Source of the DNA: an uncultured Planctomycetales bacterium
GTDB lineage: Bacteria; Omnitrophota; Gorgyraeia; Zapsychrales; JANLHA01
Length of the DNA: 64,000 nt
Assembly: GCA_964474085.1 (NCBI GenBank)
Contig: CAYYRJ010000004.1
Coordinates: forward strand, 11,656 to 75,655
Direction: 5' to 3'
A program made the translations under genes and the position numbers. Within the stretch, counting starts at the first letter, position 1; the number at the start of each line of letters is the position of its first letter. Shown piece after piece: positions 3,571 to 63,537 of the stretch. The notes under the pieces were generated by a model. That model had not been told where the DNA came from. It ran no database searches and was given only the letters and a program-made list of their open reading frames with translations.

Positions 3571-5334
3571 ATGAATCTTGCACAAAAAAACCATCGTTTT
3601 ACTGCTATTTTTTCCCTCATTTTATTAACACTTATTTTTATCTGTCATGGGCTGTCGTTAAAAGCACAGTTTATGATTGATGACTCCTCGCATTTAGCAC
3701 CTAATCAAACACAAGCTTTTTATGTAAATTTCTTTGATTTTTTTATCCGAATTTATGGACACCACTATAATCCGCTTGATATTCTGCTTAATTTTTTTGT
3801 TTTTAAACTATTCCCAATCCCAGCTTATTTATATGCATTTAATCTGCTATTATTTTACACAAACTGCATTTTGCTTTTTTTAAACGTTAAAATCTGGACA
3901 CAAAACCAAGTTCTCGCCGCGACAACTGCAATCTTATTTTGTATTCATCCGATTAATGCCGAAAACTTAAGCCACATAACACTTAATACAATATTTTTCT
4001 GTGCAATATTTCTTCAATTAAGCATGCTTGGATTTTGGAAATATATTTGTTCTCCAAGAGAGCATAAAGTCTGGTTTTATCTAAGTCTCACGTTTTTTCT
4101 ACTTGGACTTTTGTTCTTGGAAACAGCATTGCTTTTTCCAGCATATCTATGCTTATTATGTTTAATCAAACCAGCAAGAGAACGACTGAGGATATTCTTT
4201 TTAAGTTTACCTTTTTGGACTCTTTCGATCTCGTATTTTATTTTGTGGTTTTACATGACACAAGATGGGAGCCAATTAGATCAAAAAGTTTTCCACTTAA
4301 AAATTTCACCCATTAGCTACTTAGCGACTTTAGGCTTATTATCGAAATGGTATTTAGGAAATATGTTTTTCCCTAACGACCCCGTTTTTATAAAAAGTTC
4401 AGCTGTTATAACAGAAAATTTAATACCTTGGATTTCTGGACTAACGATATCTATTGTCATAATTATCGTTCTTATCTATCGCTGGAGAAAAACACTAAAA
4501 AGTTTTGCAATTTTATGGTTTCTCGTTGGGTTCATTTTCATGTTTCCTGCAAGCTTGATGCATGCCTATCAAATGGGCATGGTCATCGAACCAAACTGGT
4601 TTTTCTTTTCATCAATGGGCTTTTTTATATTTTTTGCTTCAATACTAGCCGATTTAAGCAAAAAAATACAACCCGTCCTTGCTCATACGTTGCTTGGAAC
4701 CATTGTTTTTTTCTGGATCGTATCATCTTACCATCATCATCTTATCGCAAAGTCTGAAATAAGTTATTTAGAGTATTGGTTATCAATAAGTCGGGGCAAC
4801 TGTATGCCATCTTTTAGACTCGCCTACTTATATGGACTCCCGGACTCTAGAAAAATCCCGAAAAAAATGATCTTTGATATGGATAGACAAGTAGATTTAT
4901 CGATAAAAAGAAGAGAATACCAGGAAGCTGCTAATTTAATCGATAAATTAATATTATCAGCCCCTGAAGATCCTAATCAGAAAATTTGGGAATCTAAACA
5001 AAAAGCGCTATCGATCCGTTTAGCAAAAACACCTGATAATGAAATTCTGATGGATCAACTAAAATCCAACAAACTATCCCTTCAAGAGTATCTACTAATT
5101 GCCGTAGAACTAGACAAAATTGACCTTCATGAACAAGCGATATCAATTCTTGATCATAGCCTTAGTCTTTATCCGAATGACGTTAATACAACCTATCTAA
5201 AAGCAATAATTCTTTCTAATCAAAACCACTTTAAAGAAGCTCTGGCAATTTTAAGCACAAATCCTTCCAATGACGCTCGTTTTGTTGCCTTGACGAAACA
5301 AATCCATGAATTGGAATCTAAATTCCCAGAATAA
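3571..5334 (+). CDS. Polytopic membrane protein with C-terminal TPR repeats; TMTC/PMT_2-like GT-C glycosyltransferase candidate
   Basis: About 11 TM helices, then TPR-like repeats. It is a paralog of the 8261-10246 (-) protein; shared motifs are HYNPLD and VIEPNWFFFSSMGFFI. Confidence 0.5.
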   Translation: MNLAQKNHRFTAIFSLILLTLIFICHGLSLKAQFMIDDSSHLAPNQTQAFYVNFFDFFIRIYGHHYNPLDILLNFFVFKLFPIPAYLYAFNLLLFYTNCILLFLNVKIWTQNQVLAATTAILFCIHPINAENLSHITLNTIFFCAIFLQLSMLGFWKYICSPREHKVWFYLSLTFFLLGLLFLETALLFPAYLCLLCLIKPARERLRIFFLSLPFWTLSISYFILWFYMTQDGSQLDQKVFHLKISPISYLATLGLLSKWYLGNMFFPNDPVFIKSSAVITENLIPWISGLTISIVIIIVLIYRWRKTLKSFAILWFLVGFIFMFPASLMHAYQMGMVIEPNWFFFSSMGFFIFFASILADLSKKIQPVLAHTLLGTIVFFWIVSSYHHHLIAKSEISYLEYWLSISRGNCMPSFRLAYLYGLPDSRKIPKKMIFDMDRQVDLSIKRREYQEAANLIDKLILSAPEDPNQKIWESKQKALSIRLAKTPDNEILMDQLKSNKLSLQEYLLIAVELDKIDLHEQAISILDHSLSLYPNDVNTTYLKAIILSNQNHFKEALAILSTNPSNDARFVALTKQIHELESKFPE

Positions 5335-5443
5335 TGTAAAACCTAGCAATACAAGAAATCACATATTTTTAACCCCCCACCTTGTAATCAACAATTTTCT
5401 ATGTTATACATGACCTAGAAACGTACCCATTGAAAAAGGTAAA

Positions 5444-5459
5444 CTATCCGTAAGGATAG
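5444..5459 (+). promoter_or_regulatory. Small hairpin CTATCC-GTAA-GGATAG, the first of two direct-repeat motifs (AAACTAT..GGATAG) upstream of pilA1
   Basis: Read directly from the sequence. A second copy lies at 5502-5521, overlapping a weak -24/-12-like GG-N10-GC (GG 5514-15, GC 5526-27). Confidence 0.2.
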
Positions 5460-5711
5460 GGCACAAAACTAGAGGGTCCCTAAAATACAGATAACGATTT
5501 AAAACTATGCTAGGGATAGCCAGTTGCCAACAAACACAAAATATTTTGGTAAATGTGCCTATTCTAAGGTAGAATGCAACATACGAATAGGCTTTTTTAT
5601 TTAACCTGACAACCCTTGAAAGGAGTGATGACGCGACAAAAATGTTCGGTTTTAAATCCAATAAAATAAAAAAAACGTAAAATCTGAAAGTCAACATAAA
5701 GGAGAAATTCA

Positions 5712-6131
5712 ATGAAACTTATGAAAAATAAAAGCGGTTTTACTTTGCTCGAAATTATCATTGTTGTTATCATCGTCGGTGTTCTAGCCAGCTTGGCTTT
5801 ACCAAGATTCTTTAGCACGGTCGAATTTTCACGCGCTCAAGAAGCTTTATCCGGCATTGCAACAATTCGCGGTGGTCTGGAACGTTATTATGTTTCTAAG
5901 GGAAATACCTATTCTGGTGCTTCAACAGCAAATATTGATACCGGCGATCCCTTAGCTGGTCAACCCAATGCACACTTTGCCTTAGCGGTTAGCGCTACAA
6001 CCGCAAGTTCATACACAATTACAGCTACACGTAATACTGTTGACGGTGGGACTGCCACACACACCGTTGTTCTCCAGCAAGCAGGAACTATTTCGCGCTC
6101 TGGTACGACTGCATTTGCTGGTATTAATTAG
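5712..6131 (+). CDS. pilA: Type IV major pilin (prepilin), copy 1
   Basis: Class III signal MKLMKNKSG|FTLLEIIIVVIIVGVLASLALP with Glu+5 and a short basic leader. Ser/Thr/Ala-rich C-terminal half; no Cys. RBS aaggag upstream. Confidence 0.92.
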   Translation: MKLMKNKSGFTLLEIIIVVIIVGVLASLALPRFFSTVEFSRAQEALSGIATIRGGLERYYVSKGNTYSGASTANIDTGDPLAGQPNAHFALAVSATTASSYTITATRNTVDGGTATHTVVLQQAGTISRSGTTAFAGIN

Positions 6132-6153
6132 TTTATAGTAGTATACGCTATAG

Positions 6154-6206
6154 TCGAAGCAGCATCGGAGGAAGATTTATAGACGTATCCTCTGATGTTG
6201 CTTCGA
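6154..6206 (+). other. Stable RNA hairpin downstream of pilA copy 1 (18-bp stem with 2 G-U pairs, 17-nt loop); no U-tract
   Basis: TCGAAGCAGCATCGGAGG ... CCTCTGATGTTGCTTCGA, read directly. Confidence 0.6.
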
Positions 6207-6234
6207 TATATATAATTGAAGGGAGTACCTCCTT

Positions 6235-6645
6235 ATGTCAGCCAAGAATGGTTTTACTTTGCTTGAAATTATTATTGTTGTTATCATCGTTGGTGTTTTA
6301 GCCAGTTTAGCTTTGCCAAGATTCTTTAGCACCGTCGAATTTTCACGCGCTCAAGAAGCTTTATCCGCCATTGCAACAATTCGCGGTGGTCTGGAACGTT
6401 ATTATGTTTCTAAGGGAAATACTTATTCTGGGGCATCCACATCTAATATCGATACAGGGAACCCTTTAGCTGGTCAACCCAATGCACACTTTGGCCTAGC
6501 GGTTACCGCTACAACTGCAAGTTCATACACAATTACAGCTACACGTAATACTGTTGACGGTGGGACTGCCACACACACCGTTGTTCTCCAGCAAGCAGGA
6601 ACTATTTCGCGCTCTGGTACGACTGCATTTGCTGGTATTAACTAG
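6235..6645 (+). CDS. pilA: Type IV major pilin (prepilin), copy 2, tandem near-identical paralog
   Basis: MSAKNG|FTLLEIIIVVIIVGVLASLALP. About 6 aa substitutions versus copy 1 over the mature protein; the leader peptide differs. Confidence 0.92.
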   Translation: MSAKNGFTLLEIIIVVIIVGVLASLALPRFFSTVEFSRAQEALSAIATIRGGLERYYVSKGNTYSGASTSNIDTGNPLAGQPNAHFGLAVTATTASSYTITATRNTVDGGTATHTVVLQQAGTISRSGTTAFAGIN

Positions 6646-52869: not shown

Positions 52870-54573
52870 ATGCCAACCGTTTTAATTACAGGCGCGACAG
52901 GGTTTATCGGGCGTGCTCTTTGCGTAAAAATGTTAAGTGAAGGGTGGAAGGTTAAAGGAACTTTTCGAAAAGAGTCCGAACCAAACACCCTGCCGCAAAG
53001 GGTTATCGGCGTTGCTCTGGACTTAACCAGTCCGTCTGTTTGCCCTCAAAGTGATTTTGCGGATGTCGATGTCGTCGTCCACTTGGCCGCACGTGTGCAC
53101 ATTCTCAAAGACCCGTCGAAAAATCCGCTTGAAGATTTTCGCAAAGCCAATGTCCAGGGAACAGAACATTTGGCGCGCATGGCAAAGGAAGCGGGGGTCA
53201 AAAGATTTATTTTTATCAGTTCCGTCAAAGTCAATGGGCAAGGGGCAAACCGCCCTTACAAAGAAACTGATATCCCGGCACCCGAAGATGCTTATGGAAT
53301 AACCAAGCGGGAAGCTGAAGACGTATTGAAAAATATTTCGCTTCAGACGGGTTTACCGACCGTCATTTTACGGCTACCCTTAGTTTATGGCCCGGGGGTG
53401 AAAGCGAATTTTAAAAATTTGATTAAGCTCGCTTCGTTGGGGCTGCCGTTGCCGTTTAAAAATATCCGCAATCAACGCAGTTTTCTTTATCTGGGTAATC
53501 TTATCGATGCGATAACGCTGTGCATCACGCATCCTAAGGCGATAAGCGAAACTTTTTTAGTCAGCGATGGGGAAGATATTTCAACACCAGATCTTCTGCG
53601 GCTGATCGCTGCGGCAAAAAACAAGCGACTCATTTTATTTTCTTTACCAACAGATTTTTTAAACAGGCTTGGAGCTCTGTTTAGACAAAATAAAACAATA
53701 GAAAAATTAACCGGTTCTCTGTGTGTTGACAACCGTAAAATCCAAAATTTACTCGGCTGGAAACCGCCCTTTACGCTAGAAGAGGGGATTGCAGAAACCG
53801 TTAAATTTCTCGAACATGATAAACCCAGATTTTGCATTAGCCAAACTCCTGTTTGGCCAAAGCAAAATCTGCCCGAAGGGCCGCATGTCTCGACAAAGTC
53901 GAGACGTGCGGGGTTAATCCTTGCGGTAAACCGCAACCGAAGGCAAATTTTGCATTTCCCTTTTTTGTGCGTGACGGATCGTCACGCACTATGTTGTAAT
54001 GCAAAATTTGGGATAAAACGCACCTTTGACCTGACTTTAGCAATTATTTTAATCCTTCTCTTGGCTTTGCCGATTCTTTTGATTGGCGCTTTTATCAAAT
54101 TAAAATCCAAAGGCCCGGCTTTTTTTTGGACGGATCGCGTCGGTGTCAATAACAACATTTTCAAAATGGTTAAATTCCGGACCATGCGCACCGACACGCC
54201 GCAGCTGGCCACGCATCTGATGAAAAATCCGCAAGACTATTTAATTGCAGGGGGAGAATTTTTGCGCAAGTACAGCCTTGATGAATTGCCGCAATTATTC
54301 AATGTGATTAAAGGGGATATGAGTTTTGTGGGACCTCGGCCGGCTCTGTTTAATCAGGATGATTTAGTGGCCCTGAGAACAGCCAAAGGGGTTCACAGGT
54401 TGATCCCCGGGATTACCGGCTGGGCTCAAGTTAACGGACGAGATGATTTGCCAATCCCCCAAAAAGTTTCGTTTGATGAAGAGTACTTACATCGACGGTC
54501 TTTGGCGTTTGATCTGTATATTATTTTTTTAACCGCATATAAAGTTCTTAAAAAAGAAGGCGTACGCCATTAA
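52870..54573 (+). CDS. Fusion protein: N-terminal NAD-dependent nucleotide-sugar epimerase + C-terminal small phosphoglycosyl transferase (PglC/WbaP-C-like bacterial sugar transferase)
   Basis: N-terminal VLITGATGFIGRAL epimerase domain (about 310 aa). C-terminal single TM followed by KMVKFRTMRTD and DELPQLFNVIKGDMSFVGPRP, the PGT catalytic signature. There is no in-frame stop between the domains. The linker is encoded by three perfect hairpins (53887-53989). Confidence 0.7.
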   Translation: MPTVLITGATGFIGRALCVKMLSEGWKVKGTFRKESEPNTLPQRVIGVALDLTSPSVCPQSDFADVDVVVHLAARVHILKDPSKNPLEDFRKANVQGTEHLARMAKEAGVKRFIFISSVKVNGQGANRPYKETDIPAPEDAYGITKREAEDVLKNISLQTGLPTVILRLPLVYGPGVKANFKNLIKLASLGLPLPFKNIRNQRSFLYLGNLIDAITLCITHPKAISETFLVSDGEDISTPDLLRLIAAAKNKRLILFSLPTDFLNRLGALFRQNKTIEKLTGSLCVDNRKIQNLLGWKPPFTLEEGIAETVKFLEHDKPRFCISQTPVWPKQNLPEGPHVSTKSRRAGLILAVNRNRRQILHFPFLCVTDRHALCCNAKFGIKRTFDLTLAIILILLLALPILLIGAFIKLKSKGPAFFWTDRVGVNNNIFKMVKFRTMRTDTPQLATHLMKNPQDYLIAGGEFLRKYSLDELPQLFNVIKGDMSFVGPRPALFNQDDLVALRTAKGVHRLIPGITGWAQVNGRDDLPIPQKVSFDEEYLHRRSLAFDLYIIFLTAYKVLKKEGVRH

Positions 54574-56448: not shown

Positions 56449-57641
56449 AATTAAAAATTTCTAATTACCTGGATATCGGCATCCTCTATTGCCTTTATGC
56501 TCTTATTTTTTTTATTCCTATTTCTATCGCCGGGATTAGCATATTTGCCGGTCTGGCTATTCTTTTATTTGTGATCCGGCAAATTATCACACCGGATTTT
56601 CAAAACATCCGAACAAACAAAACGTTCTTTCTGCTGCTTCTGGTTTTTTTCTTTTTTATGGCCTTATCATTATTCAACAGCGGTCCACTTCTAGGAAAAA
56701 GCCTCAAAGCCCTGTTTCTCAAATGGGGAAGATTTCCTCTGCTTTTGTGGGTCATGATCGACACCTTGCGCGATAGCCGGCGCATTATCAATGCCGTATG
56801 GATTTTTGCCCTTAGCTCGATGATATTAGCGCTGACATCTTTTTCACAAAAATTTTTAGGACACGAATTTATCTTTGGGCATCCTTTAAATCCCGGTGGC
56901 ATCATCACCGGATCGTTTAAAAATCAAAATGACTTGGCGGCGTATCTAACTGCTGTCATCCCGATGATTTTGGGCTTTGCCTTATGGAAAACCGGAAGAA
57001 AATTTACGCAAATCGGTCTTTTTATACTTAGTGCGCTATTGCTTTGCGTTTGTGCGATGACTCTCTGCCGGGGAGGCTGGCTAGGTCTTGCGGTAGGGCT
57101 CATCTCAATTGTTTTACTTATCTGCTCCCACCATTTATCCCAAAAAACATTTTGGCCGCTGGCCGTGTCAGGCTACCTTTTCTTTGTGCCGCTAACAGCA
57201 CTGGCCTTATTTTTCTTTCAGAGCCGCGGGGATAGTGCACGCTTAATGCTTTATGAAGGGGCCTGGAAAATGATCGTCGAAAATCCATTTCTGGGCAAGG
57301 GATTAGGGACTTATATGGACCATTGTGCAAACTACATCCATCAAATTGGCGTTTATTATGTCCATAATTGTTTTTTACAAATATGGGCGGAATCGGGAAT
57401 TTTTTCTTTATTGAGTTTTCTTGTGCTAAATGGGTACGTCATTTATAAAAACTTTAACCTAACTCTACGGATCCCGGCGTCATTGGAATCTTTTTTATTT
57501 ATCGGCTTAAATGCCGGATTATTAGGTTTTTTGGTCCACTGTTTTTTTGATACACAGCTTTATTCTTTGCAGTTAAGTTTTCTTTTTTGGATTACGATGG
57601 GATTAACACTTGCGCTTTATACAAACCTAAAGCAAGGTTAA
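56445..57641 (+). CDS. O-antigen ligase family (Wzy_C domain; WaaL/PglL/PilO-like) membrane protein
   Basis: Polytopic protein with a periplasmic loop carrying CRGGWLGLAVGL, the Wzy_C signature around the conserved Arg. Confidence 0.7.
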   Translation: MKLKISNYLDIGILYCLYALIFFIPISIAGISIFAGLAILLFVIRQIITPDFQNIRTNKTFFLLLLVFFFFMALSLFNSGPLLGKSLKALFLKWGRFPLLLWVMIDTLRDSRRIINAVWIFALSSMILALTSFSQKFLGHEFIFGHPLNPGGIITGSFKNQNDLAAYLTAVIPMILGFALWKTGRKFTQIGLFILSALLLCVCAMTLCRGGWLGLAVGLISIVLLICSHHLSQKTFWPLAVSGYLFFVPLTALALFFFQSRGDSARLMLYEGAWKMIVENPFLGKGLGTYMDHCANYIHQIGVYYVHNCFLQIWAESGIFSLLSFLVLNGYVIYKNFNLTLRIPASLESFLFIGLNAGLLGFLVHCFFDTQLYSLQLSFLFWITMGLTLALYTNLKQG

Positions 57642-57646
57642 AGCGT

Positions 57647-57675
57647 TTGACAACGCTAAGGCTCACAGCTATAAT
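57647..57675 (+). promoter_or_regulatory. Consensus sigma-70 promoter upstream of recA (TTGACA-17-TATAAT)
   Basis: -35 TTGACA at 57647-57652, 17-nt spacer, -10 TATAAT at 57670-57675; read directly. Confidence 0.6.
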
Positions 57676-57817
57676 TTTTCGTCAGTTAAAAAACAAAAAG
57701 AATTCCCCACCCCGATAACCCTTGTAAAGCGAAAAAGTTTCACTTTTATCTACGCCCAAGGCCCCTTAAAGGTGTGGTTGTTATATTTTCGTAATTTAAA
57801 TTACATCGGAGGTTGCA

Positions 57818-58861
57818 ATGACTGAAGTCAAAACAGAAACAAAAGCAATGGAAGCAAAAAAAGCGGCTGATCTCGAAAACAAACACAAAGCGCTCGAACT
57901 GGCCTTAACGCAAATCGAAAAACAATTTGGCAAAGGCTCGATCATGAAAATGGACGAAGCCACGTGCCTGGACATTCCAGCGATTCCAACGGGTTCGTTG
58001 GCTATTGACGTTGCTTTAGGCATTGGCGGCATTCCCCGCGGACGGGTCGTTGAGATTTACGGACCCGAATCGTCCGGAAAAACAACGCTGACGTTAAGCA
58101 TTATCAATCAAGTCCAAAAATTAGGCGGGGTGGCCGCATTTATCGACGCCGAACACGCGTTTGACGCCAGTTATGCCAAAACCGTCGGCGTCAAGTTGGA
58201 AGACCTGCTGATTTCCCAACCTGACACCGGCGAACAAGCTTTGGAAATTGCCGAAACCCTCGTGCGTTCCAACGCGATTGATTTGGTTGTCATCGACTCG
58301 GTCGCGGCTTTAACGCCTCGCGCCGAAATCGAAGGGGAGATGGGCGATTCGCACATGGGTTTGCAAGCGCGTCTTATGTCGCAAGCGCTTCGTAAACTCA
58401 CCGCCGCAATTAATAAGAGTAAGACCTGTGTTATTTTTATCAATCAAATCCGTATGAAAATTGGCGTTATGTTCGGCAATCCGGAAACCACAACCGGCGG
58501 CAACGCGCTCAAATTTTATGCCTCCGTTCGTATTGACTTGCGACGCATCGAGTCGCTCAAACGCGGAGATGAAGTCATCGGCAACCGCATTCGTGCGAAG
58601 ATCGTCAAAAACAAAGTCGCCGCACCGTTTCGCGACGGAGAATTTGAAATCCTTTTTACCGAAGGGATATCAAGGCTCAGCGATATTATCGACATGGGCG
58701 TTAAGTCCGAGATCATTCAAAAAGCCGGCGCTTGGTTTTCTTTTGAAAACGAAAAAATCGGGCAAGGCCGCGACAGCGCGCGCAAGTTTCTCGAAGAAAA
58801 CCCCAAGATCACGAACAAAATCGAAAAAGCGATTATCGAAAAACTGCTTATCAAACGTTAA
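57818..58861 (+). CDS. recA: Recombinase RecA
   Basis: [21 protein letters not shown], Walker [10 protein letters not shown] and the L1/L2 loops are near-identical to canonical RecA. RBS ggagg. Confidence 0.97.
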
Positions 58862-58867
58862 AAAACT

Positions 58868-60289
58868 ATGAAACGATTGTTTCTGTTTCTTTTTATTCTG
58901 TCTCATGCTTGGGCAACAAATCTTTACGCTGACGAACCTAACCTGGTTACGGCCGTCAGCGACGTTGCCCAAAAAACCGGACCAGCCGTGGTCGCCATCA
59001 AAACAGAAAAGATCAAGCACTATAGGATAAAATCCAACTATTTCGGCAATCCTTATGATGACGCTATCATGAACCATTTTTTTGAAGACTTTTTTGGAAC
59101 AACACCGAATTACGAAGAAAAGTCGTTAGGGATTGGTTCGGGCGTCATTGTCGACGGACGCGGCTATATTTTGACTAATGACCATGTGGTCGACGGGGCC
59201 GACAAAATCACAGTGACTCTGCCAGATGGCCGAAAGTTTGACGGAGAGTTGACGGGCATCGATGTGCGCAGCGACCTGGCCGTCATCAAAATCACCGCAG
59301 ATAATCTTCCTGTGGCAAGTTTAGGAAATTCAGAAAACCTTAAAATCGGCCAATGGGTCGTGGCCATCGGTAACCCGTTTGGCAATATTTTAGACGATCC
59401 GCAACCGACAGTGACTTCCGGCGTTATCAGCGCTTTGCACCGGAGTCTGCCGCAAACGTCCCGTCGGGATTCGGACTATTCGGATCTGATCCAAACGGAT
59501 GCCGCCATCAACCCCGGCAATTCAGGCGGGCCGCTGGTTAATTTAAACGGGGAAGTGATCGGCATTAATGTCGCGATCTTTTCGACCTCCGGCGGCTATC
59601 AGGGAGTTGGCTTTGCGATTCCGGTCAATTACGCGAAAGCGATTGTTGACCAGCTGACACAAGGCAAAAAAATCGAATACGGCTGGATCGGCATCGGGAT
59701 TCAGGATATCGATGAGCGTTTGGCGCAATACTTTGCCTTGTCCAGCGATGAAGGTGTTCTGGTTACAAAAGTTCTCTTAGACGCGCCGGCCGACAAAGCC
59801 GGAATTAAGGAAGGCGATATTATCCTTTCGGCTAACCGGATTAAAATCCGTAATTCGTCAGCACTTGTCAAACAGATCAGCAATGCAACAATTGGCAAGC
59901 CGATCGTTTTACAAATCTCGCGCGATCAAAAAAGTTTGGAAATCCCTGTCACCGTCGGGAAAAACGAGTCAGCAAACACGCCTACACCTTTAGCCGCTGA
60001 GCCTGCAGCTAAAAGACACAGCGTTAAATCCTGGCGCGGCTTAAACGTTGACGAAATAACGTCGACGACTGCCGAAAAACTGCGCTTGGCCAATACCAAT
60101 GGGGTTGTCATTACCGAAGTTGCGCCAGCGAGTCCTGCCCAATTAAGCGGTTTGGAAAAAAATGACGTGATTATCAGCATCAACAAACAGGTGATTCGCA
60201 ATTTAGAGGATTATTATCAGGCAGTTGCCGCAGCCCAAGGCAGTTGTTTGGTGCGAACTGTCCGAGGATTTTTTGTCCTCGAACCCTGA
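58868..60289 (+). CDS. htrA: Periplasmic serine endoprotease DegP/HtrA family (trypsin domain + 2 PDZ)
   Basis: Signal peptide, catalytic triad context (TNDHVV, DLAVIK, GNSGGPL), and two PDZ domains. Confidence 0.9.
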   Translation: MKRLFLFLFILSHAWATNLYADEPNLVTAVSDVAQKTGPAVVAIKTEKIKHYRIKSNYFGNPYDDAIMNHFFEDFFGTTPNYEEKSLGIGSGVIVDGRGYILTNDHVVDGADKITVTLPDGRKFDGELTGIDVRSDLAVIKITADNLPVASLGNSENLKIGQWVVAIGNPFGNILDDPQPTVTSGVISALHRSLPQTSRRDSDYSDLIQTDAAINPGNSGGPLVNLNGEVIGINVAIFSTSGGYQGVGFAIPVNYAKAIVDQLTQGKKIEYGWIGIGIQDIDERLAQYFALSSDEGVLVTKVLLDAPADKAGIKEGDIILSANRIKIRNSSALVKQISNATIGKPIVLQISRDQKSLEIPVTVGKNESANTPTPLAAEPAAKRHSVKSWRGLNVDEITSTTAEKLRLANTNGVVITEVAPASPAQLSGLEKNDVIISINKQVIRNLEDYYQAVAAAQGSCLVRTVRGFFVLEP

Positions 60290-60290
60290 C

Positions 60291-60767
60291 ATGGCTAAGA
60301 GAGAAGAACAGGACGTTTTATTTTCAAAAGCTAAAGCGATTGTTTACCGATTTTTTAAGTTTCGTATCCGCAGTGAACAAGAAATAATCACTAAACTTAA
60401 AGACAAAGCTTTTGATAATGCTATTATTGAGCCAGTTATTGCGTTTTTTAAAAAAGCTGGGCTGATCGACGATGCAGTTTTTGCCAAGGCTTGGATTGTT
60501 TCGCGCCTGGCTAAACCAATCGGCGTCAGACGTATCCGGCAGGAATTAAAAGAAAAAGGGGTTGCCGACGAAATTGTCAGCGAACAAGTCGCAAAACTTA
60601 CAAATGATTACGACGAGTTTGAAGCCGCGCAAAAAATTTCACAAAAGCGGATGAAAATTTATCAAAAACTCGATGAGACAACACAACAAAGACGACTAGA
60701 AGGCTATTTACTGCGTCGGGGATTTTCGACGGGAACAGTTTATAGAGTATCGAAATCTATCACTTGA
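60291..60767 (+). CDS. recX: Recombination regulator RecX
   Basis: About 159 aa, three-helix-repeat RecX family (LKDKAFDNAIIEPVIAFFKKAGLIDDAVFAKAWI). ATG 2 nt after the htrA stop. Confidence 0.7.
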   Translation: MAKREEQDVLFSKAKAIVYRFFKFRIRSEQEIITKLKDKAFDNAIIEPVIAFFKKAGLIDDAVFAKAWIVSRLAKPIGVRRIRQELKEKGVADEIVSEQVAKLTNDYDEFEAAQKISQKRMKIYQKLDETTQQRRLEGYLLRRGFSTGTVYRVSKSIT

Positions 60768-60781
60768 TTTTCTGTAAATTT

Positions 60782-60901
60782 GGCAGGGATGATTTGATGT
60801 CCTCTACGAGTTTGGCGAGCCCCAGCCGTGCTCACACCACACAATATTAAGTTTTGGGGCGAGACACTGTTTGAGTAGAGGATCGTCAAAACATCCCTGC
60901 C
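60782..60901 (+). promoter_or_regulatory. Long inverted repeat / structured leader upstream of alaS (26-bp stem, 1 mismatch + 1 bulge, enclosing about 67 nt with an inner GCCCCA/TGGGGC hairpin)
   Basis: Left arm 60782-60807 GGCAGGGATGATTTGATGTCCTCTAC pairs with right arm 60875-60901 GTAGAGGATCGTCAAAACATCCCTGCC. The ATG of alaS is 30 nt downstream. Confidence 0.5.
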
Positions 60902-60930
60902 AATCATGAATAATTAAAGAGAAAACGGAT

Positions 60931-63537
60931 ATGCTAACCGCAAACGACATACGAAAAAGTTTTTTAGAATTTTTTAAATCCAAACAACACTCAGTCATCG
61001 CCAGCGATTCTTTGGTGCCCAAAGATGATCCGACAGTCTTGTTTACCACCGCCGGCATGCAGCAGTTTAAACGCCAATTCTTAGGCCACATCGACGGCTT
61101 TACGCGCGCGACAACGTCCCAAAAATGCCTGCGTACCGACGATCTAGACCAAGTCGGCGTCACCGCGTTTCACCACACGATGTTTGAAATGCTCGGCAAT
61201 TTTTCTTTTGGCGACTACTTTAAAAAAGAAGCAATCGAGTGGGCATGGGAATTTTTGACCCAAGTGCTTAAAATTCCACCCCAAAAACTTTGGGTTTCTA
61301 TTTATCATGAGGACAGCGAAGCGCAAAAAATTTGGCTTGAACACATCAAAATCCCGGCCAACAGGCTTGTCAAACTCGGCGACAAAAGCAACTTTTGGCC
61401 GTCAAACGCCAAACTTAACGGCCCCAACGGTCCTTGCGGCCCGTGCTCTGAAATTTTCTTTGACTATGGGGTCAATCCCAATTGCGACAAAGGGAAAAAA
61501 TGCGATCCGGATTGCAGCTGCGGTCGCTTTAGCGAAGTCTGGAATCTGGTTTTTACCCAATATAACCGCAAGGACGGCGGCGTCTTGGAACCTTTGCCCA
61601 ACAAAAACATTGATACCGGTATGGGGCTCGAGCGCTTGGTTGCGGTCATTCAAGGCAAAAAAACCAACTACGACACGGATCTTTTTATGCCGATTCGCTT
61701 ACGAATCCGCAAAGACATTAGCTCAGAGACGATCAAGTTGTCTTTGAAAGATGAGCTTGTCATCGCAGACCATATCCGCGCGATTGTTTTTGCGATTTCC
61801 GACGGGGTCATCCCATCAAACAAAGAGCGAGGCAGTGTAGTCAAACGGCTTATCAATGACAGCACCAATCTTGTTTTAAGCGCCGGGGGGTTGACGCCCA
61901 GCATATACAAGCTTGTGCCCGCGGTCATCGAAGTTTTTAAAACGCAATATCCTGAAATTGTGCCCAAAGAAAACGACTTGATGCGGCTGATCGAAAAAAC
62001 CGAAGAAGCGTTTATTGCGGTGCGGACACAGCGACTGCCGGAATTTACCATTGAGATCCAAAAAGCGACGAACGCAACCGATCGCGGAGAAATCTATTTT
62101 CGGTTTCATGACACGTACGGCTTGCCTTTGTCGACAATTATTTCGACAGCCCTATTGGTTGGCGTTTCCAGCGATGAGAACAAACAGGCACTGGACGTTT
62201 ATCATCAACTGATGAAACAACAGCAGTCCCGTGCGCGCGCCGCCAGCAAAATGATGGGAGATGTTTTTGTCGATACCGACTTGCGTTTGGATGTGGCCAA
62301 AACCGACTTTATCGGGTACACACATTTAAGCGGCAAAGCCAAAGCGCTCAAAATTTTTATTGATCATAAAGAAGTCCTTGAAGCCAGCGCCGGGGATACC
62401 GTCGAAGTTGTTTTGGACAAAACGCCGTTTTATGCGCAGGCCGGCGGACAGATCGGGGACAGCGGATTTTTGTTAACCGGAACTGCTAAAATTCGTATTG
62501 AGGACACACAAAAGCGCAATGACGTTTACTTGCATAGCGGAAAAGTTGTGGAGGGCTTGGTCCGTGTTGGCGATCCTATTCATGCTGAAGTGGATGAAAC
62601 ACGGAGGCTTTCTATCATGCGAAATCATACGGCGACCCATCTTTTGCAATCGGCTCTGCGAAAAGTTTTAGGCACCCACGTCCAGCAACAGGGATCGCTG
62701 GTCGCGGAGGACCGCTTGCGTTTTGACTTTACGCATCCGGGAAGCTTAAGCGCCGACCAAAAGACGCAAATCGAAAATTTTGTTAACGCCTCAATCAAAG
62801 CGCATGACCACGTCGAAAAAAAGGAAATGGACATCGAAGAAGCTAAAAAACTGGGCGCTTTGTCCTTTTTTGCCGAAAAATACGGCTCGCGCGTGCGGGT
62901 CATTTCAATTGGGAATTTTTCAAAGGAATTTTGCGGCGGCACGCACTTGGATTCAACGGCCCAAATCGAAAAGTTCCGATTAACCAGCGAAGGCGCGGTC
63001 GCGCAGGGGATACGGCGCATTGAAGCAAAAACCGCAAATTTTGCGACACGTTTTGAAGAGGAACAAAAACAGCTCGAGCTTGAAAAACAACAGCGTGAAG
63101 AAGAAAAGCTCAAGCAAAAACAAGAGGCCCAAGAACTCGAAAAACAAAAATTTGAAGCCTTTGTCAAAAACGATCTCGACGGGCTTTTGGCAAAAGCGCA
63201 GGGCAAGGCGGGAACAAAACTGATTATCCAAAAGTTTCCGAATACTTCGATCGAGTTTTTGAGAAAAGTTTCAGATTTTTTAAAAACACATCCGCAGTTG
63301 GAATCAGCTGTCTTGATCTTGGCCAACGATTCGCCTGATCAGGCCAATATCTTAATTGCGGTTTCATCTGATCTTGTCAGTCGAGTCAATGCCAACGAAA
63401 TCATTAAACAAATTGCACCCATTTTTAACGGCAATGGCGGCGGGCGTCCGGATCTGGCGCAAGCCGGAAGCAAAGAAAACAAAAATTTAAATCAAGCGAT
63501 CGAAAAAGCCAGGGAAATCATTTTAGCGAAATTGTAA
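60931..63537 (+). CDS. alaS: Alanine--tRNA ligase
   Basis: N-terminus MLTANDIRKSFLEFFKSKQHSVIASDSLVP..TTAGMQQFK, class II motifs, editing-domain HxxxH...CGGTH motif, and a C-terminal DHHA1 domain. Confidence 0.97.
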   Translation: MLTANDIRKSFLEFFKSKQHSVIASDSLVPKDDPTVLFTTAGMQQFKRQFLGHIDGFTRATTSQKCLRTDDLDQVGVTAFHHTMFEMLGNFSFGDYFKKEAIEWAWEFLTQVLKIPPQKLWVSIYHEDSEAQKIWLEHIKIPANRLVKLGDKSNFWPSNAKLNGPNGPCGPCSEIFFDYGVNPNCDKGKKCDPDCSCGRFSEVWNLVFTQYNRKDGGVLEPLPNKNIDTGMGLERLVAVIQGKKTNYDTDLFMPIRLRIRKDISSETIKLSLKDELVIADHIRAIVFAISDGVIPSNKERGSVVKRLINDSTNLVLSAGGLTPSIYKLVPAVIEVFKTQYPEIVPKENDLMRLIEKTEEAFIAVRTQRLPEFTIEIQKATNATDRGEIYFRFHDTYGLPLSTIISTALLVGVSSDENKQALDVYHQLMKQQQSRARAASKMMGDVFVDTDLRLDVAKTDFIGYTHLSGKAKALKIFIDHKEVLEASAGDTVEVVLDKTPFYAQAGGQIGDSGFLLTGTAKIRIEDTQKRNDVYLHSGKVVEGLVRVGDPIHAEVDETRRLSIMRNHTATHLLQSALRKVLGTHVQQQGSLVAEDRLRFDFTHPGSLSADQKTQIENFVNASIKAHDHVEKKEMDIEEAKKLGALSFFAEKYGSRVRVISIGNFSKEFCGGTHLDSTAQIEKFRLTSEGAVAQGIRRIEAKTANFATRFEEEQKQLELEKQQREEEKLKQKQEAQELEKQKFEAFVKNDLDGLLAKAQGKAGTKLIIQKFPNTSIEFLRKVSDFLKTHPQLESAVLILANDSPDQANILIAVSSDLVSRVNANEIIKQIAPIFNGNGGGRPDLAQAGSKENKNLNQAIEKAREIILAKL

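What the first reader, a model, noticed from the sequence alone, without database searches (positions are those of the whole stretch)
60782..60901. 120-nt structured element with a 26-bp stem immediately upstream of alaS
Near-perfect inverted repeat arms (one A-A mismatch, one bulged T) enclose 67 nt. This region contains a duplicated GGCGAG and an inner 6-bp GCCCCA/TGGGGC hairpin, ending 30 nt before the alaS ATG. E. coli AlaRS autoregulates by binding a palindrome at its promoter, and this could be an analogous operator. It could alternatively be an RNase III site, attenuator or small ncRNA. It has no T-box features. The antisense ORF 60804-61163 overlapping it is probably spurious.
Basis: seen in the sequence. 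Interest (0 to 1): 0.55.

Follow-up and report, generated by a model that had tools for sequence, protein, structure and literature searches.

The report
Orientation-flipping palindromic spacer element before alaS
The 124-base hairpin-forming palindrome between recX and alaS is real and conserved, but related copies sit in the histidine operon and upstream of recA and occur in either orientation, so it is an intergenic palindromic spacer element, not an alaS-specific switch.

Summary
Window 60780-60903 is a 124-nt imperfect palindrome with 28-nt arms. Both strands fold far better than shuffles (z about -5.4). It is unique in the window and matches no Rfam family.

The window comes from a Candidatus Omnitrophota genome with the gene order recA-htrA-recX-[element]-alaS-hisD-hisB. 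In most Omnitrophota recX and alaS overlap (ATGA), so the element is an insertion-like spacer.

Homologues occur at the same junction in only 3 of 11 related lineages. In two of those lineages the whole element is inverted relative to alaS. The closest distinct relative (86% AlaRS identity) lacks it.

A paralogue lies between hisB and hisH, in the same genome just outside the window, and also flips orientation between relatives. A third variant lies upstream of recA in another relative.

All copies share one architecture:
- a 22-28-bp outer stem kept by compensatory changes;
- a conserved internal loop (GCUCAAACAGUG / CAAACUCG);
- an inner stem and a variable tip.

This argues against an alaS operator or leader. 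My best reading is an ERIC/Correia/REP-like intercistronic palindrome that acts, if at all, as an orientation-independent double-stranded hairpin in the operon transcript. The conserved loop motif is unexplained. Interest is moderate.

The parts
60780..60903 (.). Whole palindromic element (A-type), 124 nt. The strand carrying the conserved CAAAC motifs is the window minus strand, antisense to alaS.
   Evidence: Model R1 scores 148 bits on the - strand against 42 on the + strand. Model R2 scores 82 bits on the - strand.
60780..60807 (.). Left arm of the outer stem (28 nt)
   Evidence: Compensatory changes are seen against L098 and L106.
60875..60903 (.). Right arm of the outer stem (29 nt, one bulged T)
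60865..60875 (-). Conserved 5' internal-loop motif CTCAAACAGTG (read on the minus strand)
   Evidence: Exact match. The same motif is present in L098, L106, L096 and L107. A variant, GCTCGAACAGT, occurs in L103.
60807..60814 (-). Conserved 3' internal-loop motif CAAACTCG (read on the minus strand; CGAGTTTG on plus)
60819..60860 (.). Inner stem GCCCCA/TGGGGC (60819-60824 and 60855-60860) enclosing a variable AT-rich tip (60825-60854)
   Evidence: The inner stem covaries (GCCCC/GGGGC in the window, GCGCC/GGCGC in L106). The tip is not conserved.
60291..60767 (+). recX, the upstream gene (likely ATG start at 60291)
   Evidence: Pfam RecX_HTH1-3. N-termini of homologues.
60931..63537 (+). alaS, the downstream gene (868 aa)
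   Evidence: Pfam tRNA-synt_2c, tRNA_SAD and DHHA1. A 100% identical database protein, P0001, exists.
60740..60907 (-). Spurious 55-aa antisense ORF spanning the element (60804-61163 is likewise spurious)
   Evidence: No Pfam hit. In L098 the element is read in a different frame, as a false N-terminal extension of AlaRS (P0004, 912 aa).

Best explanation
The element is one member of a small, lineage-restricted family of palindromic intercistronic spacer elements in one Omnitrophota clade. Three locus types are seen: recX|alaS, hisB|hisH and upstream of recA. It is not an alaS-specific regulator.

It sits inside a co-directional gene string (recA-htrA-recX-alaS-hisD-hisB-hisH...) at a junction where most relatives have overlapping genes. 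I infer that it is transcribed with its neighbours. In either orientation it would fold into a 22-28-bp double-stranded hairpin. That hairpin would uncouple the flanking cistrons in one of three ways: as an RNase III-type processing site, as a barrier to 3' exonucleases, or as a partial terminator. REP, ERIC and Correia elements act this way in other bacteria.

Shown: the palindrome, its conservation with compensatory changes, the paralogues, the orientation flips, the patchy presence and the operon context.

Inferred: transcription, folding in vivo, and the processing or stability role.

Unexplained: the conserved internal-loop motif (GCUCAAACAGUG opposite CAAACUCG). It probably marks a binding site for an unknown protein.
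For: - Stable palindrome on both strands.
- The 24-bp outer helix is 92% paired across A and H types. 15 of 24 pairs changed on both sides (1/500 shuffles reach this). Slid controls give 33-41% paired.
- Every member has an outer stem of 22-28 bp, about two helical turns of duplex.
- Orientation relative to the flanking genes differs between lineages at both loci: A-type is - in window and L096 but + in L098 and L106; H-type is - in L107, L096 and L106 but + in L104. Only an orientation-independent property such as the hairpin can be the shared function.
- Both main loci are short gaps between co-directional genes, downstream of a conserved sigma-70-like recA promoter.
- At this junction, almost every Omnitrophota locus with a gap of 50 nt or more carries some strong but unrelated hairpin. 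Most other loci have an ATGA overlap.
- The element is more conserved than synonymous sites: 73% and 61% identity against 52% and 46% at alaS third codon positions.
- Known analogues: Correia elements are bound and cut by RNase III, and ERIC elements modulate the stability of co-transcribed mRNA (PMC2229807, PMC2649163).
Against: - There are no transcript data. Nothing shows that the hairpin forms or is cleaved.
- A pure hairpin role does not explain why 12 + 8 nt of internal loop are nearly invariant across paralogues and species. After a flip, the mRNA carries the complementary loops.
- C.A mismatches are about equally common on both strands (8 against 5-6). There is no sign of selection on one RNA strand, which fits DNA-level maintenance equally well.
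- Arm-to-arm template switching can keep palindromes paired without selection.
- The element was lost or replaced in most relatives, so it is dispensable.
- No terminator-like U tract follows the stem.
Confidence: 0.4

Rival explanations
1. DNA-level site. The functional form is a hairpin or cruciform in DNA. Its internal bubble presents the same RAAC-containing motif on both arms to a dimeric protein, such as a domesticated or active transposase or recombinase (RAYT-like), or a nucleoid or topology factor such as gyrase or IHF (as at BIMEs). Orientation relative to genes would then be irrelevant.
For: - Orientation is free at two loci.
- No strand bias in G.U against A.C mismatches.
- The spacing between the two motifs varies (51-64 nt), yet they are always brought together by the fold.
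- The two motif copies change together: CAAAC/CAAAC in A and H types against CGAAC/GGAAC in L103.
- The centre is AT-rich, which favours extrusion.
- Contigs of three independent assemblies break inside these elements.
Against: - No candidate protein was identified and no transposase was seen next to any copy.
- No target-site duplications.
- Only 2-3 highly diverged copies in about 170 kb examined.
- Contig breaks can come from low coverage (3.3x in L107).
Confidence: 0.2
2. Decaying, non-functional palindromic insertion (an old MITE- or REPIN-like element). Pairing is kept by arm-to-arm template switching. The apparent conservation reflects occasional horizontal replacement through recombination in the conserved flanking genes.
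For: - The ancestral state of the junction is a gene overlap, so the element is an insertion.
- Presence is patchy on the AlaRS tree, with many losses or replacements by other palindromes.
- REP-like units of other families occupy the same gaps.
Against: - Loop motifs are nearly invariant (27/29 and 16/17 positions between window and L106), while synonymous sites are about 46% identical.
- The same motifs are kept in paralogues whose stems share almost no sequence.
- No near-identical copies that would indicate recent mobility.
Confidence: 0.15
3. Independent small RNA genes: two or three paralogues with a long closing stem, a central bubble and a terminal stem (6S-like or a protein sponge), transcribed on their own irrespective of the neighbouring genes.
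For: - The architecture resembles a miniature 6S RNA.
- Loops are conserved while stems covary, the classic signature of a structured RNA.
- Two paralogues per genome.
Against: - No Rfam 6S or other family hit, even at E <= 10.
- Length is 107-124 nt.
- No conserved promoter or terminator in the flanks. The flanks do not flip with the element, and in L106 the left arm overlaps the recX stop codon.
- No strand bias in wobble pairs.
Confidence: 0.1
4. alaS-specific control element: a DNA operator bound by AlaRS (as in E. coli) or a leader or attenuator RNA that senses alanine or tRNA-Ala.
For: - It lies immediately upstream of alaS.
- A palindrome is orientation-independent as a DNA operator.
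- GCC/GCG triplets occur in the A-type loops.
Against: - Absent at this junction from 8 of 11 related lineages and from 80 other Omnitrophota or other genomes.
- Paralogues with the same motifs sit between hisB and hisH and before recA.
- Arm sequences differ between species.
- No promoter-like site at the element.
- The RNA sense is inverted in L098 and L106.
- No T-box match.
Confidence: 0.03
5. Phase-variable inverton: the arms are recombination sites and the segment switches orientation within populations to turn something on or off.
For: - Both orientations exist among lineages at two loci.
- Assemblies break at the elements.
Against: - Orientation is the same in three independent assemblies of each of two lineages: L098, L099 and L100; and window, L096 and L107.
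- A 67-bp interior is too short for synapsis of duplex inverted repeats (inference).
- No conserved promoter inside.
- alaS and his genes are unlikely phase-variable targets.
Confidence: 0.03

Closest known systems
ERIC / IRU elements of enterobacteria (127-bp imperfect palindromes)
   Same: - Same size class (107-148 nt here).
- Imperfect palindrome.
- Lies in transcribed intergenic gaps of operons.
- Found in either orientation.
- Present at a site in some species and absent in others.
- Affects stability of co-transcribed mRNA (PMC2229807).
   Different: - ERIC copies share sequence along their whole length and have short TIRs with TA duplications. Here the copies share only the loop motifs and the architecture, and no duplication is seen.
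- Only 2-3 copies were found.
- The same orthologous site carries opposite orientations in different lineages.
Correia repeat enclosed elements (CREE/NEMIS) of Neisseria
   Same: - About 24-26-bp terminal inverted repeats enclosing a conserved core, 105-155 bp in all.
- Co-transcribed with neighbours.
- The long stem is an RNase III substrate.
- The core carries a protein (IHF) site (PMC2229807, PMC2649163).
   Different: - Correia elements are high-copy, near-identical, have TA duplications and create promoters at their ends.
- None of this is seen here.
- The loop motif does not fit the IHF consensus (my reading of the sequence).
REP/BIME and REPIN elements (for example REPs in malE-malF and hisJ-hisQ intercistronic gaps; REPIN-RAYT systems)
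   Same: - Intercistronic palindromes that act in either orientation as mRNA 3'-end barriers (established knowledge).
- REPINs are ~100-nt hairpins that persist vertically for long periods (PMC3116915, PMC3337134).
- Other REP-like units occupy the same gaps in relatives.
   Different: - REPs are 20-40 nt, GTAG- or CGTC-tagged and abundant (PMC3733652).
- No abundance, no clear tag and no RAYT gene were found in the sequence available.
E. coli alaS autoregulatory palindrome (AlaRS as repressor; Putney and Schimmel 1981, from my own knowledge)
   Same: A palindrome close to the start of alaS.
   Different: - That site flanks the alaS transcription start and is bound by AlaRS.
- Here there is no detectable promoter.
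- The element is inside an operon, is missing in most relatives and has paralogues at non-alaS loci.
6S RNA
   Same: Closing stem, central bubble, terminal stem. Two paralogues per genome occur in some bacteria.
   Different: - No covariance-model match.
- Much shorter, with a small bubble.
- No fixed transcription polarity.

Membership tests
AlaRS operator (E. coli type) | Palindrome overlapping the alaS promoter or transcription start | tested here: inconclusive
   No sigma-70-like site at or next to the element in the consensus scan. No TSS data. recX-alaS overlap in most relatives suggests co-transcription.
AlaRS operator (E. coli type) | Specific association with alaS | tested here: not met
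   Paralogues lie at hisB|hisH and upstream of recA. The element is absent at recX|alaS in 8 of 11 related lineages.
AlaRS operator (E. coli type) | Bound by AlaRS | not testable with these tools
   Needs an EMSA or footprint.
T-box leader | Match to the T-box covariance model, with specifier loop and T-box sequence | tested here: not met
   No Rfam hit at E <= 10 on either strand.
MITE (ERIC/Correia type) | Terminal inverted repeats | tested here: met
   28-nt arms. Arms are 22-28 nt in all members.
MITE (ERIC/Correia type) | Target-site duplication (usually TA) at both ends | tested here: not met
   The flanks of six members show no duplication.
MITE (ERIC/Correia type) | Several near-identical copies per genome | tested here: not met
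   One copy in the 64-kb window and one diverged paralogue 4.5 kb downstream. Whole genomes were not available, so this holds only for about 75 kb.
MITE (ERIC/Correia type) | Filled and empty orthologous sites, and both orientations | tested here: met
   L097 has an empty site (12-nt gap). L098 and L106 carry the element inverted.
REP / REPIN-RAYT | Abundant 20-40-nt GTAG- or CGTC-tagged palindromes in inverted pairs, plus a RAYT gene | tested here: inconclusive
   GTAG and CGTC strings occur in some arms but not consistently. There is no abundance. A RAYT gene was not searched for genome-wide.
6S RNA | Match to the 6S covariance models; 150-200 nt; large central bubble | tested here: not met
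   No hit at E <= 10. Length is 107-124 nt and the bubble is about 8/5 nt.
RNase III substrate | About 20 bp or more of near-continuous double-stranded RNA | tested here: met
   The outer stem is 22-28 bp in every member and in either orientation.
RNase III substrate | Transcribed and cleaved in vivo | not testable with these tools
   No transcriptome or enzyme data.
Inverton (phase-variable switch) | Both orientations coexist within one population | tested here: inconclusive
   Independent assemblies of the same lineage agree in orientation (L098 = L099 = L100; window = L096 = L107).
Integron attC site | Paired RYYYAAC / GTTRRRY cores at the base of the stem, short R and L boxes, arrays with cassettes | tested here: not met
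   The conserved motifs are unpaired direct repeats inside a 22-28-bp stem, and GTTTGAG does not fit GTTRRRY (sequence reading). The flanking genes are housekeeping.

The most novel reading that the evidence does not exclude
The family could be a previously undescribed kind of cis site. It would be a long-lived, low-copy hairpin (in DNA or RNA) with a 22-28-bp stem. The stem positions a conserved internal bubble that carries the same RAAC-containing motif on both strands, for an unknown dimeric protein. The site would be placed at module boundaries of the recA-alaS-his gene cluster and would work regardless of orientation. The whole element would be inverted in situ by recombination or template switching between its own arms.
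Probability: 0.15. Interest if true: 0.6.

Novelty: new variant of a known kind. Interest (0 to 1): 0.35.

Why it matters
The comparative data remove a tempting but wrong annotation, an alaS autoregulatory operator or leader. They replace it with a defined, searchable family:
- two covariance models;
- three locus types;
- a diagnostic loop motif.

The family lies in a poorly studied phylum, Omnitrophota.

If the element is only a REP/ERIC-like hairpin, it is ordinary. It still helps explain false gene extensions such as the 912-aa 'AlaRS' P0004. It may also explain contig breaks in MAGs.

The following combination is unusual for bacterial palindromic repeats:
- near-invariant loops;
- freely covarying stems;
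- orthologous persistence across genera;
- repeated whole-element inversion.

If the loops mark a protein-binding site, the family offers a simple system for asking how such elements are maintained and what they do.

Tried and rejected
- **Rfam:** searched the element, its flanks, the whole window and four related loci on both strands at E <= 10. Nothing relevant was found; one plant miRNA-precursor hit reflects only a generic hairpin.
- **tRNA/tmRNA:** none at the site.
- **BLASTN/nhmmer:** the element against 80 species-representative alaS loci gave no homologue.
- **Metagenome scan** for the outer 11-mers of both arms (TGGCAGGGATG..CATCCCTGCCA) gave 15 loci, all unrelated longer palindromes or a different GC-rich repeat family. 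The 11-mer is usually internal to a longer inverted repeat.
- **Viral-contig scan** for the loop motifs gave 8 chance matches without stems.
- **Conserved small ORF:** reading frames differ between window, L098 and L106, so this was rejected (and sequence reading).
- **Strand assignment** from G.U against A.C mismatches and from folding energies was not decisive.
- **Promoters, terminators and target-site duplications:** none consistent in the flanks.
- **Similarity to the hairpin cluster at 53.8 kb:** not significant.
- **IHF, sigma-54, LexA, parS, dif, attC and k-turn consensus readings:** I considered these from memory. None fits the loop motif.
- **MAFFT alignment of A with H types:** the 3' halves were misaligned. 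I trimmed 8-10 nt from the variable tips of the A-type sequences to obtain alignment A4, which was used for R2 and the pair counts.
- **Literature searches** for Omnitrophota ncRNAs and alaS palindromes returned nothing useful.

Full report
**1. What is there**

Window 60780-60903 reads TTGGCAGGGATGATTTGATGTCCTCTAC-[67 nt]-GTAGAGGATCGTCAAAACATCCCTGCCAA.

- The arms pair over 28 positions, with one A.A mismatch, one T.G wobble and one bulged T.
- Both strands fold much better than dinucleotide shuffles: -58.9 and -58.5 kcal/mol against about -37, z = -5.4 and -5.3, 0 of 200 shuffles as good.
- The arm occurs once in the 64-kb window.
- No Rfam family matches, even at E <= 10. There is no tRNA or tmRNA at the site.
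- No promoter- or terminator-like site touches the element.

**2. Context**

Pfam identifies the neighbouring genes:

| Gene | Coordinates |
|---|---|
| recA | 57818-58861 |
| htrA/degP-like protease | 58868-60289 |
| recX | ends 60767 |
| alaS | 60931-63537 |

All four are on the + strand. Downstream come hisD, hisB, hisH and further his genes. The nearest relatives are Candidatus Omnitrophota MAGs.

Most loci among 80 species-representative genomes carry a RecX-sized ORF whose stop overlaps the alaS start, with a gap of -4 (ATGA). The 163-nt gap in the window is therefore the exception, and the palindrome fills it.

Where other Omnitrophota have a gap at this junction, some strong hairpin of unrelated sequence nearly always fills it. 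Several of these have arms built from short tandem repeats. None is a sequence homologue of the window element.

**3. Homologues, and the surprise**

The AlaRS search found only about a dozen proteins at 64% identity or more. I fetched their contigs.

| Locus | AlaRS identity | State of the recX-alaS junction |
|---|---|---|
| L096 | 96% | Identical element |
| L097 | 86% | No element, 12-nt gap |
| L098, L099, L100 | 82% | Clear homologue, inverted relative to alaS |
| L106 | 71% | Clear homologue, inverted relative to alaS |
| L101, L102, L103, L104/L105, L116, P0010, L117 | 64-77% | Other hairpins or no gap |

- Model R1 scores 148 bits on the window minus strand. It scores 153 and 134 bits on the plus strands of L098 and L106.
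- The asymmetries of the arms flip together with the interior, so the whole element is inverted, not just the loop.
- In L106 the left arm overlaps the recX stop codon.
- On an AlaRS tree, the lineages that carry the element are interspersed with those that do not.

**4. Paralogues**

- Model R1 found a second member between hisB and hisH in L096. The alignment is shown.
- The same paralogue is in L107. L107 is another assembly of the window's own genome and is identical over the overlap from window 60786. This copy lies about 4.5 kb downstream of the first, at roughly window coordinate 65.4 kb, just outside the window.
- The hisB-hisH element is also present in L106 (minus strand, cut by the contig end).
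- It is present in the opposite orientation in L104/L105, which carry an extra small hairpin inserted in the 5' loop.
- Model R2 was built on A- and H-type sequences together. The tips of the A-type sequences were trimmed to obtain a correct alignment.
- R2 recovers all of these. It adds a third variant in L103, between a glycosyltransferase/TPR gene and the recA promoter (20.8 bits).
- No further member was found in the window with filters off.
- None was found in about 610 kb of Omnitrophota loci, nor in viral contigs.

**5. Anatomy of the family**

Read on the motif strand, every member has these parts in order:
1. An outer stem of 22-28 bp.
2. The 5' loop GCUCAAACAGUG.
3. An inner stem: GCCCC/GGGGC in the A type (GCGCC/GGCGC in L106), AUUUUUAUU/AAUAAAAAU in the H type.
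4. A variable AT-rich tip.
5. The 3' loop CAAACU(C/G)CG.

This is seen.

- In the A-type alignment, 10 of 34 pairs changed on both sides and 94% of cells are paired. No shuffle out of 500 reaches the observed percentage paired, double-change count or covariation score.
- Across A and H types, the 24-bp outer helix is 92% paired, with 15 of 24 pairs changed on both sides (1/500 shuffles reach this). Slid controls give 33-41% paired.
- The L103 variant has CGAAC and GGAAC in place of the two CAAAC motifs, so both direct-repeat copies changed in parallel.
- The element is 73% (L098) and 61% (L106) identical to the window copy. alaS third codon positions are only 52% and 46% identical. The loops are nearly invariant (27/29 and 16/17 positions, from the alignment).
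- No reading frame is conserved. In L098 the gene caller read the element as a false 44-aa N-terminal extension of AlaRS (P0004, 912 aa).
- C.A mismatches, which become G.U wobbles on the opposite strand, are about equally frequent on both strands. Folding energies do not consistently favour the mRNA-sense strand.
- The flanks show no target-site duplication, no shared promoter and no U tract.

**6. What this excludes**

An alaS-specific operator, attenuator or leader is very unlikely, for four reasons:
- The element is missing at this junction from most relatives, including the closest distinct one.
- It is inverted in two of the three lineages that have it.
- Its conserved motifs recur at non-alaS junctions.
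- It has no T-box features.

A stand-alone small RNA is unlikely. The flanks carry no conserved signals and do not flip with the element.

An actively switching inverton is unlikely. Three independent assemblies of each of two lineages agree in orientation, and the interior is only 67 bp.

A recently active MITE is unlikely. The copies within one genome share only the architecture and about 20 nt of loop.

**7. Best explanation and its limits**

The shared properties that survive inversion are the long duplex and the position at boundaries inside a co-directional gene string. That string is driven by a conserved sigma-70-like recA promoter (TTGACA-17-TATAAT).

The closest known things are the intercistronic palindromes of other bacteria:
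- ERIC: 127-bp imperfect palindromes, co-transcribed, in either orientation, affecting mRNA stability.
- Correia elements: about 24-bp inverted repeats around a conserved core, cut or protected by RNase III and carrying an IHF site.
- REP/BIME.

These descriptions come from PMC2229807, PMC2649163, PMC3116915 and PMC3733652.

I therefore take the element to be such an intercistronic palindrome. Its 22-28-bp stem, once transcribed, would serve as a processing or stability determinant that uncouples recX from alaS and hisB from hisH. This step is inference, because no transcript data were available.

The weak point is the near-invariant internal loop. A pure hairpin role does not explain it. Its orientation independence and lack of strand bias fit a DNA-level hairpin or cruciform site for a dimeric protein about as well.

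I put about 0.4 on the RNA-hairpin reading and 0.2 on the DNA-site reading. I put 0.15 on a functionless relic and 0.1 on a small RNA. The alaS operator and the inverton each get a few per cent.

**8. Novelty**

The family is not in Rfam, and I found no description of it. It is best classed as a new variant of a known kind, bacterial intergenic palindromic elements. It is unusual in four respects:
- low copy number;
- stems that diverge completely while the loops stay fixed;
- persistence at orthologous sites across a clade with AlaRS identity down to 71%;
- repeated inversion of the whole element in situ.

Noticed in passing
L107 4616-4745 (-), about window coordinate 65.4 kb, just beyond the window end; also L096 5897-6019 (-), L104 ~4692-4839 (+), L106 9490-9562 (-): A paralogue of the element lies between hisB and hisH. 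It has the same loop motifs but different stems (an AT-rich inner stem), and its orientation also differs between relatives.
   Followed up: yes
L103 6464-6574 (-): A third variant of the family lies between a PMT_2/TPR gene and the recA promoter. Both CAAAC motifs are changed to CGAAC/GGAAC (R2 20.8 bits).
   Followed up: partly
window 53800-54030: A 231-nt cluster of hairpins (MFE -100.7, z = -9.2, no Rfam family) lies inside ORF 52870-54573. It sits exactly in the linker between an NAD-epimerase domain and a sugar-transferase domain. It looks like an intergenic palindromic-repeat cluster that stays in frame and fuses two genes, or a true fusion.
   Followed up: partly
window 6153-6207: A perfect 20-bp hairpin with a 15-nt loop (z = -5.6) lies between two tandem type IV minor-pilin genes (ComP_DUS/N_methyl), 5712-6131 and 6235-6645.
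   Followed up: partly
window 57640-57817 (and L098 1170-1354, L103 6590-6775, L106 1695-1855): A conserved recA promoter (GTTTGACAAC..17..TATAAT) is followed by a sequence-conserved ~130-nt leader (CCCCACCC ... CCCCTTAAAGGTGTGGTT ... ATCGGAGGTTGCAATG). The consensus fold is weak (-6 kcal/mol).
   Followed up: partly
window 5428-5531 (+) and 15049-15122 (+): A c-di-GMP-I riboswitch (59 bits) and tRNA-Ala(CGC).
   Followed up: no
L107 start (= window 60786); L104/L105 starts; L106 contig end: Contigs from independent assemblies begin or end inside these palindromes. This could reflect low coverage at hairpins (L107 is 3.3x) or heterogeneity.
   Followed up: no
L028, L032, L038, L041 (recX-alaS gaps); L102 1204-1231; L103 9725-10000; L098 7613-7700; L107 6095-6290: Other Omnitrophota carry unrelated strong hairpins at the same junctions. 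Some have arms made of short tandem repeats. Others are REP-like units (GTCATCCCCGC..GCGGGGATGAC, CATTGCGAGGA.., GGAGAGGGG..).
   Followed up: partly
L084, L085, L087, L089, L091 (metagenome contigs): An unrelated GC-rich family of 110-123-nt palindromes starts with TGGCAGGGATGCCGG. Two identical copies lie 660 bp apart in L091. It was found only because it shares the 11-mer used in the scan.
   Followed up: no
L098 3001-3132: The database protein P0004 (912 aa 'AlaRS') carries a false 44-aa N-terminal extension translated from the palindromic element.
   Followed up: yes
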